Below, piece after piece: positions 48,825 through 53,786 of a DNA stretch of 64,000 nucleotides. Position 1 is the first letter of the stretch. The number at the start of each line of letters is the position of its first letter. The stretch is taken from the NCBI RefSeq assembly GCF_056746865.1, contig NZ_CM163382.1; one strand, given 5' to 3'. The notes beneath the pieces were generated by a model. That model saw nothing but the letters and a program-made list of their open reading frames with translations. It ran no database searches and was not told where the DNA came from. The position numbers and the translations under genes are program-made.

Positions 48825-49811
48825 ATGGTTAAAATTCACATTTTAGATGCCGGACATGGTGATTGCTTGTTAGTAGACTGCGATGGTGTCAAATTGTTAA
48901 TTGACGCTGGCCCAAGTACATTTAGGTATAGAAAAAAAATTTCAGCCAAGTTAGCTGAACTTCTGAATGGCGAGTCTGTTGATATCGCTTTTGTAACTCA
49001 CAATGATGATGACCATATCGGTGGTTTCAAATACCTAATTGAAAATAAAATAAACATCAAGAGATTTGTATTCAATAGTTTATCTAACATTAAACATGTA
49101 ATAAAGAATTCAAGCAATAAAATATCGACCAAACAAGATATAAATCTTGATAGAATAGTGAAAGATGGAAGTTTTGTCTTTTCGACACTAACTTCAGATG
49201 ACTCTCCTATTTTAATCAGAAATATAAAAATAACACCTATTACTCCTTCAAAAAATATCCTTTTAAAATATTTAGAACAACAAGAGCGTAAAAACACAGA
49301 AATTAAAATATCATCTTCATCTGAAAAATATAGTATTAAAGAAGCACTGCAGTTGCTAAGCAATGGAAATGATATGTTTGTAAAGGATCCATCGGCAACT
49401 AATAAAACCAGTTTATCATTTATGATTGAGTATGGGAATTTTTGTGGATTATTCCTTGGTGATGCACACGAAGAAGACATCTACTCATATATGGCTAATC
49501 ATTGTGCCAATAGAAAAATATCATTTAACGTTGTTAAGTTAGCACATCATGGTAGTGAAAAAAACACGAGTTCACGGTTATTGAAGTTAATTGGTACAAC
49601 AGAATATATCATATGTGCGAATAAAACCAAGCATAATCATCCAAATAATTTAACTCTTGCAAGAATTTTAATACATGAACAAGAACCTAAAATTCATATG
49701 AGTAGCAGCAATCAGGAGATAATAAATTTACTCAATCAAATAAATTTATTAGGCTTCGGCATTACTGCAACCCATTCTGAAAATGGAGTTAATACTTTAA
49801 TCTATGAGTAG
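48825..49811 (+). CDS. metallo-beta-lactamase-fold protein, ComEC-like (putative nuclease/hydrolase)
   Basis: 328-aa ORF: ILDAGHGDCLLVDCDGVKLLIDAG start, THNDDDHIGG metal-binding-like motif, AHHGSEKNTS motif; very AT-rich. Confidence 0.7.
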   Translation: MVKIHILDAGHGDCLLVDCDGVKLLIDAGPSTFRYRKKISAKLAELLNGESVDIAFVTHNDDDHIGGFKYLIENKINIKRFVFNSLSNIKHVIKNSSNKISTKQDINLDRIVKDGSFVFSTLTSDDSPILIRNIKITPITPSKNILLKYLEQQERKNTEIKISSSSEKYSIKEALQLLSNGNDMFVKDPSATNKTSLSFMIEYGNFCGLFLGDAHEEDIYSYMANHCANRKISFNVVKLAHHGSEKNTSSRLLKLIGTTEYIICANKTKHNHPNNLTLARILIHEQEPKIHMSSSNQEIINLLNQINLLGFGITATHSENGVNTLIYE

Positions 49812-51269
49812 AAAAAATGCTGTAAAAATAAAAGTCAATGATTCGGAATCAAGTGGCTATTTTTTCAAAGCAAGCTCCAAGGATGATTCTTTTGTAATTT
49901 CATCCAAGCACGGCCTTTGTTCTAGACAGTCAGATTGTGAAGAATTTCTTGATAATGTTCAGAATTGTTGCCGTTTATGCACTCAAGATTTAAATATTGA
50001 CAATATATCTTTTGAAATTGAAGGAAATAAGAAGCTAAAGCCAATAAGTTATTTCAGTCTTGAAAACAAAGATATTGTCATCACCAAAGTGGATGGGGTA
50101 TCTAATTATCCTTTAAGGATAGGAAAGATAGAAAAAGAAAAGTATTATACTTATGGTTACAAGAGTAAATGTGATAAGCCTGGCAGAATTTTATTAAATG
50201 AGCCAGATTTATTAGATGGGATTTGTTATTTCAATATATGTTCCGATGCAACACCTGAGTTGATTGAGAAAAGTGAAGAATATTATGGAATTTCAGGTTC
50301 ATTAGTTTTTGATTCTCCAGAAAAAGATGTTTTAACCGCACATGCAGTAATAACAACTAATGAAACCAATAATGACTTAGGTTCAGAAATATTACATGAT
50401 ATTGATTTCAAAGAAATTAATAACTTTTTCGGCTGTGAAGTATTCTTGGGTAAAAAACTCCAATTTCAACTAGATGATACTTTTAGTAAAAATTTTTCAA
50501 AGATTGGAGAAGTGCTTGTTAGCGACAAACTCCAAATTGAAATATTTATTTCATCTTATAAAGGTATACCATATTTTAATTTGACACCAATTGCTGATGC
50601 ATTAATTCAAAGTAAGTTTTATTATGTTTTTGGAAATGTTAGTAGAAGTGATCATATAAATATAATCGCTGCATCAAACATTATACTCAACAAATCTCAT
50701 TTAGAACCAGCTAATAAATTATTAACTAGCAAATTAACTGAATCGATATTATCAGCACCTCATATTTATTCCACTAGCATTGATGATAATAATTATCATC
50801 ATATTCATTTTAAACAAATGACTTCTGGTGATATTGAGCTCATAATATCATGTTATGGTGGAGGAGATGATCTTCCTAAAGATATAAATGGCACTTTAAC
50901 TGAGTTGTTACACAATATAAATACTTATAACTTAAATAAAAATTCAATAATTGAGAGGTCTTTTCTTAATCAAAAATTTACAGATGCACAATGCGAAATT
51001 TTATATGAGATTTTTTTGAGCGATTAACTGATTCAATCGACAGAATTTCATTATTGCATGTAATTCCTTTGGACCATTATTTAATAAAAGATAAATCAGA
51101 AATTAAAAATGAAATTATTACCATTGTTGAGAAAGCGTGTCAAGAATTAGACAGCAACATTTTAGATTATCTTGAGCATGGAATATCTATAAATCTATTA
51201 ATATTTCCAACTAATAATAAAGATGAATTATCAGGGTTAATGCAAAGGTTGATAAATAATTATGAATGA
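49804..51269 (+). CDS. protein with trypsin-like serine protease-type motifs; reading frame interrupted at a T7 run (ORFs 49804..51027 and 51054..51269 probably one gene)
   Basis: Start overlaps the MBL gene stop by 8 nt (ATGAGTAG); motifs SSKHGLC, NKDIVITKV, GISGSLVF; frame 1 stops at 51027 while frame 0 stays open from the T7 run (51011-51017) to 51269 and has no ATG or RBS of its own. Confidence 0.6.
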
Positions 51270-53786
51270 TGCTATTAATTATATCTGCAATAGAATAAAA
51301 AATAGTGACGGATTTAGTTACTGTTATGAAAAACTATTGATATCTATTTCAAAGAATCTATTCAATCCAACTAGCAGCAACCCCATTACTCAGCGTGAAT
51401 ATCAACAATTGCTAAAATTCAGCGATTTTTTATCTAATTCCGAAAAAGAAGAAGATCGAAACCTAGCGTTAAAAATAATATCTGCAATATATGATCTTTA
51501 TAAAGAAGATCATAGTTGCCAATTACTGACAAAATCCATCCTTAGCAAACTTGGACTTTTTGCCGCTGAGGAAGTATTTACTGATAGTGATATAAAACTA
51601 CCATTATCCTATGAAATTTCTAGCAAATACAGAAAAATAAAAAATCGTATAAATGGTTCTGAGTACATATTCACTAATCGACAATGTGATGTGTACAGTG
51701 AGATCATGCAGAATGATTATTTTAGTTTTTCTGGCCCGACATCCCTCGGCAAATCATTCTTGATTAAACATGCTGCCGTTGATCTTATTGAAAATAATAA
51801 ACTAATTATTTTCATCCTTCCAACAAAAGCTTTATTAGAAGAATATCTAATTGACTTAAAATCTATACTCAATGAAAAAGGCGTGAAAGATATAAATGTA
51901 AGTAAATCCGTATCACAAGTTGACAAAGAAAGTAAAAATATATTGGTGTTTACACAAGAAAGATATAACTCATTTTTATATGAAAAGTCTTATGATAATA
52001 TGGATGTTGACTTTTTATTTATTGATGAAGCTCATAAAGTACTTGACAAAAAGAATAATAGAGCTATAACCCTATATAAAGTAATAAATAACTCCATAGA
52101 AAAATATGGTAAATTAAAAGTCATTTTTTCCTGCCCAGTAATTTCCAATCCTGATGTGTTTTTCAAAACATTTAATATACCGAATAGCAAGAAAACAAGA
52201 AGTTTATGTATTAAAGAATCTCCGGTAAATCAAGATTTGTACTTTGCAAATTATCAAGATAATAATTTTGTCTATTTTGATTCTATTTTAAATAAAAAAA
52301 TTAATTTCAATGTAAATAATGCTTATCAAAATGACTTTGAAATAATCAGAGGATTAGCACAACAATCCAAGTCAAACCTTATCTACGTATCAAGTAAAAC
52401 AGAATGTATAAGGAAATGTAACGAATTTCTAGAGTATTTAATTCGGGAAAAAAAGTATCGATAACAACAGACGATGAACTTATTTCCGAGTCAAAAATAA
52501 TCATGGAGTATATTCATAAAGATTTTAACTTAGCTCATGTATTAAAATATGGTATAGCATTTCACCATGGTTCACTACCTCTATTTATAAGAAAAAGAAT
52601 AGAGGACTTATATTCCAAAAAGAAAATAAATTTTATCTTTTGCACATCAACTTTACTTGAAGGGGTAAACTTACCCACAAAGAATGTTTTTATTTATCCA
52701 TTCCCTAAAAAGACTGTTAACGATGAAAAAAAATGCCGATTAGATTTTTGGAATCTGGCGGGGCGAGCTGGAAGATACAGAAGTGAATTGACTGGTAACA
52801 TAGTATGCCTGAATACCGCTGATAATAACTGGAGCAATGCAGATGCTAAAATTAGCCTAGGTAATAATGTTATTATAGAGGATGAAATAAACTCAACATT
52901 ACTACGCCATCAAAAAATATTAAATTATTTTGATGGTAAAGTTAAATCTCCAACTAATGACATTATTCAACTCAGCTCACTTATTCTATCAGAAATATTA
53001 ACTTATTTAGATAAAGGTTATATAGGGCGAATTTTAAATACCTTTAATGAAAAGATTCGGTTTATGCTTATTGATTCAGGAAAAAAACATCTTGATCGTA
53101 ATAGAATTATTGAAATAGATAAAGTGACCTTTTCAGAAAATCATATATTCTCAACATCCATACACGCTAAAGCCCAACTCAATGCTAAAAATAAAGAAAA
53201 ATTATTGCGTTCTTATAGCAGAGAGGATGTTTTCAATTATTTGGAAACAATAAATGAAATATATGGCCTGCGTAACACCCCTGATTCATTAAACCAACTG
53301 TGCATTGTGACTTATTCGTGGCTCATGGGTAATACGCTGAATTTATTAATATCAAACGCTATTAAATATAGCAATTCAGTTAGAGATCCTATTAGCTATA
53401 GATGGGTTAAATTTGATAAAACCAATCCTGATCATATAAACGCAAAAATAATGGAGGCAATACAATGCATTGAATCTGAAGTTACTTTTAAACTTGAAAC
53501 ATGTATTGCTCATTTTTATCAGCTATGTCAATCAATTCACGGCGATGAAAATGCAGGCATTAATCTTTCACCTTATTTAGAATATGGAACATTAGATACT
53601 AACATCATAGAACTTCAAGAGTTTGGTTTCTCTCGTTTAGCCGCAATTGAAATTATAGCAAAGCACAAAGAGTGTGTTACATTCAAAACAAATGAGACAT
53701 CATTGCAAATAAACACTCAGAAATTAAGAGCTAAGATTGAAAAGCACAGTGTAATTGATAGAGAACTATCATGGTTGAATTTATAA
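51262..53786 (+). CDS. Ski2/Hel308-like SF2 (DExH) helicase; reading frame interrupted at an A7 run (ORFs 51262..52464 and 52503..53786 probably one gene of about 840 aa)
   Basis: Walker A GPTSLGKS, Walker B FIDEAHKV in the first ORF; motifs IV-VI (LIYVSSKTE, GIAFHHGSLP, CTSTLLEGVNLP, AGRAGR) in the second; second frame open from 52422, joining at the A7 run 52448-52454. Confidence 0.7.

What the first reader, a model, noticed from the sequence alone, without database searches (positions are those of the whole stretch)
48825..53786. Candidate undescribed defence operon: ComEC-like MBL-fold protein + trypsin-like protease-motif protein + Ski2/Hel308-like helicase, next to the island's putative origin
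Three co-oriented genes are translationally coupled by 8-nt overlaps (ATGAGTAG at 49804-49811 and ATGAATGA at 51262-51269). They sit in the most AT-rich block of the window, directly after the primase gene and iteron cluster of an ssrA-integrated P4/PICI-like element, which is where such elements typically carry anti-phage cargo. The helicase core motifs, the MBL-like motifs and the H/D/S protease-like motifs are read directly from the translations. I do not recognise this gene combination as a described defence system; that is an assessment from memory, not a database result.
Basis: partly seen in the sequence, partly recalled or inferred. Interest (0 to 1): 0.9.

Follow-up and report, generated by a model that had tools for sequence, protein, structure and literature searches.

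The report
Frameshifted HamMAB (protease-nuclease Hachiman) defence operon
This is an E. coli copy of an anti-phage system described in 2025, a Hachiman helicase sensor that uses a fused protease to switch on a DNA-cutting enzyme, and in this genome two one-base deletions have broken two of its three genes, so it is a known kind of system, probably inactive here.

Summary
The sequence observation holds. An AT-rich (28-30% GC) cassette at 48825-53786 encodes an MBL-fold protein, a protein with a trypsin-like N-terminus, and a Ski2/Hel308-type helicase. It sits in an ssrA-integrated island, just after a DUF927 replication gene.

The claim that it is undescribed does not hold. The helicase is HamB of Hachiman (PADLOC 1e-89 and 2.6e-92; PDB 9wh1_B 1.5e-94). 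The middle protein is a protease-HamA fusion (profile match to 9wh1_A 9.3e-18; invariant H36/D90/S164; chymotrypsin fold). The MBL belongs to the ComEC/Avs1a-like "gated pro-nuclease" family. This three-gene arrangement is HamMAB, also called Hachiman-trypsin-MBL. Tuck et al. (Science 2025) and Huang et al. (bioRxiv 2025) characterised it, and Liu et al. (NAR 2026) validated an E. coli-derived example.

In the window, hamA is cut at a T7 run (51011-51017) and hamB at an A7 run (52448-52454). Three of 131 carrier E. coli genomes have the intact T8/A8 allele (488-aa and 841-aa proteins), so the window's allele is a derived double frameshift that dominates one near-clonal lineage. I found no evidence of programmed frameshifting.

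Verdict: new (decayed) member of a known kind, low interest.

The parts
48825..49811 (+). hamM: MBL-fold 'gated' pro-nuclease, 328 aa, intact
   Evidence: ORF. Pfam Lactamase_B 6e-08. PADLOC MBL models: 'LmuA' 2.9e-61, RTasMBL 1.3e-48, Avs1a 2.4e-35. NCBIfam Avs1a 3.1e-42, below its cut-off. The AF2 model (pLDDT 85.5) best matches the ComEC MBL domain 9ic4, E=1e-15. Invariant residues include H59, D61, D63, H64, D213, H241, H242 and H272. I100-S101 is invariant and I162(-S163) invariant or nearly so, and both sit in the two least confident loops.
49804..51027 (+). protease-dHamA, 5' part as encoded (407 aa): trypsin-like protease domain (about residues 1-200) plus most of the HamA-like domain, ended early by the frameshift
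   Evidence: ORF. H36, D90 and S164 are invariant. Foldseek finds chymotrypsin-fold proteases at 1e-7 to 1e-8. The family profile matches 9wh1_A at 9.3e-18 over residues 5-483.
51011..51017 (+). T7 run: a 1-nt contraction of an ancestral T8, causing the frameshift in protease-dhamA
   Evidence: The T8 allele is present in E. coli 2021CK-01784, LSC52, A10 and CH4796.
51018..51269 (+). Out-of-frame 3' tail of protease-dhamA (last 81 codons of the 488-aa protein; listed as a 71-aa TTG ORF at 51054-51269)
   Evidence: The repaired translation aligns to the C-termini of all homologues. The tail alone gives a weak PADLOC HamA hit of 0.0028, covering profile positions 244-303 of 310.
51262..52464 (+). 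hamB, N-terminal fragment (400 aa): first RecA lobe with Walker A and the DEAH box
   Evidence: PADLOC HamB1 PDLC00176 1e-89, profile positions 4-400 of 845. Motifs.
52448..52454 (+). A7 run: a 1-nt contraction of an ancestral A8, causing the frameshift in hamB
   Evidence: The A8 allele gives an 841-aa HamB (WP_039720360.1) in intact genomes.
52455..53786 (+). hamB, C-terminal part in the -1 frame (listed as a 427-aa ORF from the ATG at 52503): second RecA lobe (GRAGR) and C-terminal domains
   Evidence: PADLOC HamB1 PDLC00176 2.6e-92, profile positions 413-842 of 845. The repaired 841-aa protein matches 9wh1_B at 1.5e-94 over residues 6-831.
39961..40323 (+). ssrA (tmRNA), the integration site of the island (context)
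   Evidence: ARAGORN. RefSeq annotates an integrase immediately downstream.
46083..48152 (+). DUF927 replication-type protein of the island, directly upstream of the cassette (context)
   Evidence: RefSeq annotation. Weak NCBIfam hit to the SCCmec Cch1 replicative helicase, 1.2e-15.

Best explanation
The cassette is a HamMAB system: a Hachiman anti-phage system that has acquired a protease-nuclease effector pair.

In the intact form, the model taken from the published systems runs as follows.
1. HamB, a Ski2/Hel308-type SF2 helicase, forms a complex with protease-dHamA. The complex is held off by bound ATP.
2. Phage-derived or damaged DNA, with 3' overhangs preferred, stimulates ATP hydrolysis.
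3. This releases or oligomerises the N-terminal trypsin-like protease of HamA.
4. The protease cuts the separately encoded MBL pro-nuclease HamM in two loops that occlude its active site.
5. HamM becomes a non-specific DNase that degrades phage and host DNA, giving abortive infection.

What is shown here: homology of all three proteins to the characterised system; conservation of the catalytic residues and of two invariant Ile-Ser loop motifs; and conserved gene order across genera.

What is inferred here: the cleavage sites (after I100 and I162) and the trigger.

In this window the system is a derived, doubly frameshifted allele (T8 to T7 in hamA, A8 to A7 in hamB). HamA lacks its last 81 residues and HamB is split between its two RecA lobes. 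Published mutants show that both proteins are required, so the copy is most likely non-functional. It leaves an intact but unactivatable pro-nuclease gene.
For: Identity of the three proteins:
- Both helicase halves match PADLOC HamB1, 1e-89 and 2.6e-92.
- The repaired HamB matches 9wh1_B at 1.5e-94 over its full length. Ski2, Hel308 and Pol-theta helicases follow further down the list.
- The middle-protein family profile matches 9wh1_A, 'AbpA/HamA C-terminal domain-containing protein', at 9.3e-18 over residues 5-483. Our H36 aligns to H38, the residue mutated in Huang et al..
- H36, D90 and G162-x-S164-G165 are invariant in 21 homologues.
- The AF2 model has a beta-rich N-terminal domain, and Foldseek returns chymotrypsin-fold proteases.
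- No conserved D-GExK or (D/E)xK motif occurs in the HamA-like domain, as reported for protease-HamA fusions.
- The MBL is related to Avs1a, RT-associated and Lamassu-associated MBLs and to ComEC. It has about 50 extra residues relative to ComEC between positions 72 and 176. The invariant I100-S101 and I162-S163 lie in the low-confidence loops 91-110 and 155-170.

Conserved arrangement: the same hamM-hamA-hamB order with overlapping stop and start codons occurs in Morganella, Aeromonas and Vibrio, in unrelated neighbourhoods.

Mechanism and phenotypes.

Frameshifts:
- They are shown.
- Intact T8/A8 alleles occur at the same locus in 3 of 131 carrier genomes.
- The two haplotypes differ by only 2 SNPs plus the 2 indels over 27 kb.
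Against: - Pfam, NCBIfam and the PADLOC HamA models do not recognise the full-length middle protein. Its HamA assignment rests on the profile match to one solved structure and on synteny.
- This sub-lineage is distant from both characterised systems. Its loop motif, (K/Q)-I-S, is neither the KSS motif of the Klebsiella system nor clearly the IS(G)N motif reported for long-form HamM. The cleavage sites are therefore inferred.
- No experiment on this particular locus was found. I could not establish whether Liu-DS5 is this locus.
- Loss of function is inferred from the reading frames alone. Both frameshift sites are slippery heptamers in the -1 register, so some full-length protein cannot be excluded.
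Confidence: 0.87

Rival explanations
1. The T7/A7 allele is still functional at a low level or reversibly. Ribosomal -1 frameshifting or transcriptional slippage at U_UUU_UUG and A_AAA_AAG could yield small amounts of full-length HamA and HamB. Alternatively, the 7/8-nt runs could act as phase-variation switches that attenuate or toggle a toxic abortive-infection system.
For: - Both shifts need a -1 correction, and both lie on canonical X_XXY_YYZ heptamers in the correct register. The second is the dnaX heptamer A_AAA_AAG.
- The doubly shifted allele is the majority form in carrier genomes.
- HamMAB expression is toxic, which gives a rationale for attenuation.
- Independent homopolymer frameshifts occur in hamB of Morganella and in another E. 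coli strain.
Against: - No stable RNA structure lies downstream of either site (z = 0.07 and -0.66).
- No Shine-Dalgarno-like element sits at dnaX-like spacing upstream (sequence).
- Relatives in E. coli, Morganella, Aeromonas and Vibrio are in frame at these positions.
- A 7-nt A or T run falls in a slippery register in 2 of 3 frames by chance.
- The T7/A7 genomes are a near-clonal haplotype (27 variable sites over 27 kb in 10 genomes), so its abundance does not imply selection.
- No genome with one run at 7 nt and the other at 8 nt was seen in the 10 genomes examined or the hit lists read, which argues against frequent switching.
- With 8 runs of 8 nt in the 30-kb locus and 3 of them in hamA/hamB, both contractions falling there has a chance of about 3/28.
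Confidence: 0.09
2. It is a previously undescribed defence system.
For: Standard annotation resources leave the middle protein unnamed. RefSeq calls the genes 'ComEC/Rec2 family', 'hypothetical' and 'DEAD/DEAH box helicase'.
Against: Three independent papers describe and test this architecture. Solved structures of a homologous protease-HamA/HamB complex match two of the proteins.
Confidence: 0.02
3. The genes are not a defence system but serve the island or host. For example, a ComEC-like nuclease could act in DNA uptake and the helicase in island replication.
For: - The RefSeq name is 'ComEC/Rec2 family competence protein', and the best structural match is the ComEC MBL domain.
- The cassette lies next to the island's replication gene and a repeat cluster.
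Against: - The MBL lacks the ComEC membrane and OB domains. It is a 328-aa soluble protein.
- The trio moves as a unit between unrelated genomic contexts.
- Homologous trios restrict phage.
- The same island carries PD-T7-5 and PD-T4-1 homologues, so it is a defence island.
Confidence: 0.02

Closest known systems
HamMAB, the nuclease-protease Hachiman of Pseudomonas fluorescens (Tuck et al., Science 2025, PMC12799240)
   Same: - Three genes in the order hamM (MBL pro-nuclease), protease-hamA fusion, hamB helicase.
- The HamA nuclease motif D-GExK is lost.
- Conserved isoleucines sit in two HamM loops. In PflHamM, cleavage occurs after I118 and I218. Here I100 and I162 are invariant and lie in two flexible loops.
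- The system is carried on mobile DNA.
   Different: - This HamM is shorter (328 aa, against a 42-kDa PflHamM).
- No direct sequence comparison with the Pfl proteins was possible here.
- The copy in the window is frameshifted in hamA and hamB.
- Cleavage, trigger and phage range are untested for this lineage.
Hachiman-trypsin-MBL of Klebsiella pneumoniae (Huang et al., bioRxiv 2025; PDB 9wh1, 9whk, 9whu)
   Same: - HamB is homologous over its full length (E=1.5e-94).
- Protease-HamA is homologous over its full length at profile level (E=9.3e-18), with the catalytic His aligned (H36 to H38).
- Both have an upstream MBL with two inhibitory loops.
   Different: - The Klebsiella HamA is 528 aa, against 488 aa here.
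- The Klebsiella MBL is cut at two KSS motifs (P1 = Ser). This family has invariant (K/Q)-I-S motifs instead. That places it nearer the Ile-P1 group, and MBLs are reported not to be exchangeable between the two groups.
Canonical Hachiman type I (HamA nuclease plus HamB; Doron 2018; Tuck et al., Cell 2024) and E. coli AbpAB
   Same: A HamB-family helicase acts as sensor, paired with a HamA (DUF1837-type) partner encoded immediately upstream.
   Different: - The effector is not HamA itself. The HamA domain lacks the catalytic motif and carries an N-terminal protease.
- A third gene, hamM, supplies the nuclease.
- PADLOC HamA models do not detect the full-length protein.
AVAST type 1 (Avs1a MBL plus protease-STAND NTPase) and other trypsin-MBL modules (Lamassu, DRT, short pAgo)
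   Same: They use the same family of MBL pro-nuclease (PADLOC Avs1a 2.4e-35, 'LmuA' 2.9e-61, RTasMBL 1.3e-48; NCBIfam Avs1a 3.1e-42) together with a partner trypsin-like protease.
   Different: The sensor here is a Hachiman helicase complex, not a STAND NTPase, SMC-like protein, reverse transcriptase or Argonaute. The NCBIfam Avs1a score (144.7) is far below the equivalog cut-off (420).

Membership tests
HamMAB / Hachiman-trypsin-MBL | A HamB-family SF2 helicase | tested here: met
   PADLOC HamB1 1e-89 and 2.6e-92 for the two halves, contiguous on the profile. 9wh1_B 1.5e-94. Walker A, DEAH and GRAGR motifs present.
HamMAB / Hachiman-trypsin-MBL | A trypsin-like serine protease domain fused to the N-terminus of HamA, with a catalytic His/Asp/Ser triad | tested here: met
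   H36, D90 and S164 are invariant in 21 homologues. Foldseek finds chymotrypsin-fold proteases at about 1e-7 to 1e-8. H36 aligns with the catalytic H38 of 9wh1_A. The model is low-confidence around S164, in residues 148-190.
HamMAB / Hachiman-trypsin-MBL | A C-terminal HamA (DUF1837/AbpA-HamA) domain that has lost the D-GExK nuclease motif | tested here: met
   The profile match to 9wh1_A extends to residue 483. The tail alone hits PADLOC HamA weakly, at 0.0028. No conserved GExK or (D/E)xK motif is present. Caveat: Pfam, NCBIfam and PADLOC give no hit for the full-length protein.
HamMAB / Hachiman-trypsin-MBL | A separate MBL-fold nuclease gene immediately upstream, of the ComEC/Avs1a-like family | tested here: met
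   The gene overlaps the protease-hamA start by 8 nt. The same order is found in Morganella, Aeromonas and Vibrio.
HamMAB / Hachiman-trypsin-MBL | Two inserted inhibitory loops in the MBL that carry conserved protease cleavage sites | tested here: inconclusive
   There are about 50 extra residues relative to ComEC between positions 72 and 176. I100-S101 is invariant and I162(-S163) invariant or nearly so, and they lie in the two lowest-pLDDT loops, 91-110 and 155-170. Occlusion of the active site and actual cleavage were not tested.
HamMAB / Hachiman-trypsin-MBL | All three genes intact (all three activities are required for defence) | tested here: not met
   In this window hamA is frameshifted at the T7 run and hamB at the A7 run. 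The feature is met by the T8/A8 allele in three other E. coli genomes.
HamMAB / Hachiman-trypsin-MBL | Anti-phage activity with protease-dependent activation of the DNase | not testable with these tools
   Shown for the Pseudomonas, Klebsiella and one E. coli-derived system, not for this locus.
Canonical Hachiman type I | HamA acts as the effector nuclease with an intact D-GExK motif, in a two-gene system | tested here: not met
   The motif is absent. There is a third gene and a protease fusion.
Hachiman type II (PADLOC) | An associated HamC (DUF3223) gene | tested here: not met
   The definition comes from Payne et al. 2021. No DUF3223 or HamC hit was found among the cassette proteins or the neighbouring genes.
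AVAST type 1 | An Avs1a MBL together with a STAND NTPase sensor | tested here: not met
   The MBL scores 144.7 bits against a cut-off of 420. No STAND NTPase is present. The partner is a HamB helicase.
Programmed -1 ribosomal frameshift site | A slippery heptamer in register, plus a stimulatory element, plus conservation of the shift in relatives | tested here: not met
   The heptamers are in register. However, there is no downstream structure, and relatives and three E. coli genomes are in frame.

The most novel reading that the evidence does not exclude
The doubly frameshifted T7/A7 allele is not dead but an attenuated or switchable form of a toxic abortive-infection system. Slippage at U_UUU_UUG and A_AAA_AAG, by the ribosome or by RNA polymerase, would supply trace amounts of full-length protease-HamA and HamB. 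Alternatively, the 7/8-nt runs would serve as contingency switches. Either would explain why this allele predominates in the carrier lineage.
Probability: 0.08. Interest if true: 0.45.

Novelty: new member of a known kind. Interest (0 to 1): 0.2.

Why it matters
There are three practical consequences.

1. The locus can be annotated correctly as hamM, protease-hamA and hamB. RefSeq currently names the products "ComEC/Rec2 family competence protein", "hypothetical protein", "DEAD/DEAH box helicase" and "helicase-related protein", and does not flag the fragments as pseudogenes.

2. Current HMM libraries (Pfam, NCBIfam, PADLOC v2 HamA models) do not recognise this protease-dHamA sub-lineage. Automated defence finders are therefore likely to miss it.

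3. Nearly isogenic natural alleles exist, intact (T8/A8) and doubly frameshifted (T7/A7). These are a ready-made pair for testing the fitness cost and the decay of a toxic abortive-infection system in a clinical E. coli lineage.

None of this changes what is known about how the system works.

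Tried and rejected
- Pfam, NCBIfam and PADLOC on the repaired middle protein gave no hit. Only the profile search against PDB sequences and the fold search identified it.
- I considered Hachiman type II (HamC). HamC is DUF3223, not an MBL, so this was rejected.
- I considered programmed frameshifting. The heptamers are in register, but there is no downstream structure and in-frame alleles exist, so this was rejected as the main explanation.
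- I tested whether two contractions landing in hamA/hamB is unlikely by chance. It is not (about 3/28).
- I looked for an attR repeat of the ssrA 3' end within the window. None was found, and the island's right end was not determined.
- I tried to establish whether the experimentally validated E. coli HamMAB 'Liu-DS5' is this locus. The supplementary tables were not available or held no matching accession.
- The promoter and terminator scan of the cassette was uninformative. It found fewer promoter-like sites than in shuffled sequence.
- Foldseek on the whole middle-protein model returned only protease-domain matches in the top 50. The HamA fold was therefore not confirmed structurally, only by sequence profile.

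Full report
**Observation**

The window holds, on the + strand, five ORFs:
- an MBL-fold ORF at 48825-49811 (328 aa);
- a 407-aa ORF at 49804-51027, followed by a 71-aa out-of-frame ORF at 51054-51269;
- two helicase ORFs at 51262-52464 (400 aa) and 52503-53786 (427 aa).

The 8-nt overlaps ATGAGTAG (49804-49811) and ATGAATGA (51262-51269) are present. GC content is 0.28-0.30 across 49001-54000, the lowest in the window. A tmRNA gene lies at 39961-40323. RefSeq annotation of an identical E. coli locus shows, in order: integrase, AlpA, a DUF927 protein, the cassette, and then an HTH gene on the opposite strand.

The two interruptions lie at a T7 run (51011-51017) and an A7 run (52448-52454). Adding one base to each gives uninterrupted proteins of 488 and 841 aa. 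As actually encoded, the second 8-nt overlap joins hamB to the out-of-frame tail rather than to the 407-aa ORF. The gene 2 to gene 3 coupling therefore exists only in the repaired form.

**What the genes are**

*Helicase.* The two helicase halves match one PADLOC HamB1 model contiguously: profile positions 4-400 at 1e-89 and 413-842 at 2.6e-92. The repaired protein matches PDB chain 9wh1_B at 1.5e-94 over its whole length. Ski2, Hel308, Pol-theta and Brr2 helicases follow further down the list. It has Walker A (GPTSLGKS, 158), DEAH (255) and GRAGR (501) motifs.

*Middle protein.* It has no Pfam, NCBIfam or PADLOC hit at full length. A profile of 21 of them matches 9wh1_A, [quoted passage not shown], at 9.3e-18 over residues 5-483. 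H36, D90 and G162-x-S164-G165 are invariant. H36 aligns with H38, the protease residue mutated in Huang et al.. The AF2 model (pLDDT 76) has a beta-rich N-terminal domain of about 200 residues, and its best Foldseek matches are chymotrypsin-fold proteases. The C-terminal domain has no conserved GExK or (D/E)xK motif.

*MBL.* It matches the PADLOC MBL models named LmuA, RTasMBL and Avs1a (2.9e-61, 1.3e-48, 2.4e-35). It matches NCBIfam Avs1a below the cut-off. By sequence and by fold, the closest solved structure is the ComEC MBL domain.
- Its metal-site residues are invariant: H59, D61, D63, H64, D213, H241, H242, H272.
- I100-S101 is invariant and I162-S163 invariant or nearly so.
- These two motifs lie in the two least confident, unstructured stretches of a good model (pLDDT 85.5; loops 91-110 and 155-170).
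- They fall within a region about 50 residues longer than in ComEC.

*Conservation.* The same three genes, in the same order and with overlapping stops and starts, occur in Morganella, Aeromonas and Vibrio in unrelated neighbourhoods.

**Comparison with the literature**

This is the architecture published as HamMAB (Tuck et al., Science 2025) and as Hachiman-trypsin-MBL (Huang et al., bioRxiv 2025). Those studies show the following:
- The MBL is an inactive pro-nuclease.
- The trypsin-like domain fused to a catalytically dead HamA cuts it in two inhibitory loops, after Ile in the Pseudomonas system and between Ser residues of KSS motifs in the Klebsiella system.
- ATP bound to HamB holds the protease off, and DNA-stimulated ATP hydrolysis releases it.
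- The activated DNase causes abortive infection.
- Nuclease, protease and helicase mutants each abolish defence.

A third group validated an E. coli-derived HamMAB, Liu-DS5, which restricted 52 of 70 phages but only when driven by an araBAD promoter. I could not determine whether that construct is this locus.

Hachiman type II of PADLOC is something else, an associated DUF3223 HamC.

**State of the locus in this window**

Of 5,426 complete E. coli genomes, 131 carry the cassette. It is always chromosomal, and in every copy I inspected it sits at the same ssrA locus.

I searched with a query repaired at both runs. Three genomes (2021CK-01784, LSC52, A10) matched over the full 2,103 bases. They are annotated with a 488-aa middle protein and an 841-aa helicase. 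A fourth genome, CH4796, has T8 and A8 but a different 1-nt deletion in hamB. Nearly all the others have the 2,101-base T7/A7 form seen in the window.

Over 27 kb, ten genomes differ at only 27 sites. The T7/A7 and T8/A8 groups are separated by two SNPs (49073 and 54688) plus the two indels. The window's allele is therefore a derived double frameshift within one near-clonal lineage.

In Morganella, one assembly has hamB intact (T8) and another has it frameshifted (T7) at a nearby but different run.

The intact 30-kb locus has eight 8-nt runs, three of them in hamA/hamB. Two contractions both landing there is therefore not surprising, with a chance of about 3/28.

Both shifted sites happen to be -1 slippery heptamers in register, U_UUU_UUG and A_AAA_AAG. 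However, there is no stimulatory structure downstream, and in-frame relatives exist. I therefore rate programmed or regulatory frameshifting as unlikely, at roughly 8-9%.

Published work shows that the HamA domain and HamB are both needed. The most likely state is thus an inactivated system with an intact but unactivatable pro-nuclease gene. The reported toxicity of HamMAB offers a plausible reason why loss is tolerated or favoured. That last point is inference.

**Verdict**

This is a real feature at the stated coordinates and is correctly read as a defence operon. It belongs to a system that has already been described and mechanistically characterised, and here it is a decayed copy. Novelty: a new member of a known kind, from a divergent sub-lineage with (K/Q)-I-S loop motifs that current HMM libraries miss. 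Interest is low (0.2).

Noticed in passing
window 42733-43905 (- strand): A 390-aa ORF in an AT-rich patch is a strong homologue of the single-gene defence system PD-T7-5 (PADLOC 2.6e-136). RefSeq calls it 'hypothetical protein'.
   Followed up: partly
window 57968-59170 (+ strand; ORF listed from a TTG at 57917): A DUF3883 / 'NO VEIN domain' protein is a near full-length homologue of the defence gene PD-T4-1 (PADLOC 1.3e-204). With HamMAB and PD-T7-5, the island therefore carries three defence loci.
   Followed up: partly
window 48170-48410: A cluster of short repeats (AGGTGGTACA and GTGGGACA motifs, with direct copies at 19-, 62- and 63-nt spacing and perfect 13- and 18-nt inverted copies) lies directly after the DUF927 gene. 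Its function was not tested.
   Followed up: partly
window 46083-48152: The island's DUF927 protein shows weak similarity to the SCCmec Cch1 replicative helicase (NCBIfam 1.2e-15, far below the cut-off). It has no PADLOC hit.
   Followed up: no
window 53941-54420 (- strand): An HTH gene convergent with hamB gives a weak match to the CBASS regulator CapH (PADLOC 4e-05). Whether it regulates the cassette is unknown.
   Followed up: no
window 54781-57674: A high-GC (0.61) block encodes sorbitol-type PTS components and a Gfo/Idh/MocA oxidoreductase. It is sandwiched between AT-rich defence genes, so the island is a mosaic of cargo of different origins. No attR repeat of ssrA was found inside the window.
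   Followed up: partly
L003 about 2585-2600 versus L002 about 10295-10310 (Morganella morganii); L011 (E. coli CH4796), window-equivalent position 52048: There are independent 1-nt homopolymer deletions in hamB in other genomes: T8 to T7 in one Morganella assembly, and an A-run deletion in an E. coli strain that otherwise has the intact T8/A8 allele. These could be recurrent decay or assembly error. The two cannot be distinguished here.
   Followed up: partly
L001 12326-17287 (RefSeq NZ_CP032515.1) and other E. coli records: PGAP annotates the frameshifted fragments as ordinary CDSs with their own WP_ accessions (WP_000087769.1, WP_001323186.1, WP_001323185.1) rather than as pseudogenes. Some databases name the C-terminal HamB fragment 'histidine kinase'.
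   Followed up: no
L002 7677-9137 (Morganella): The deposited gene call for the protease-hamA homologue starts 108 codons too late (378 aa). The reading frame is open from an ATG that overlaps the hamM stop, giving 486 aa like the other homologues.
   Followed up: yes
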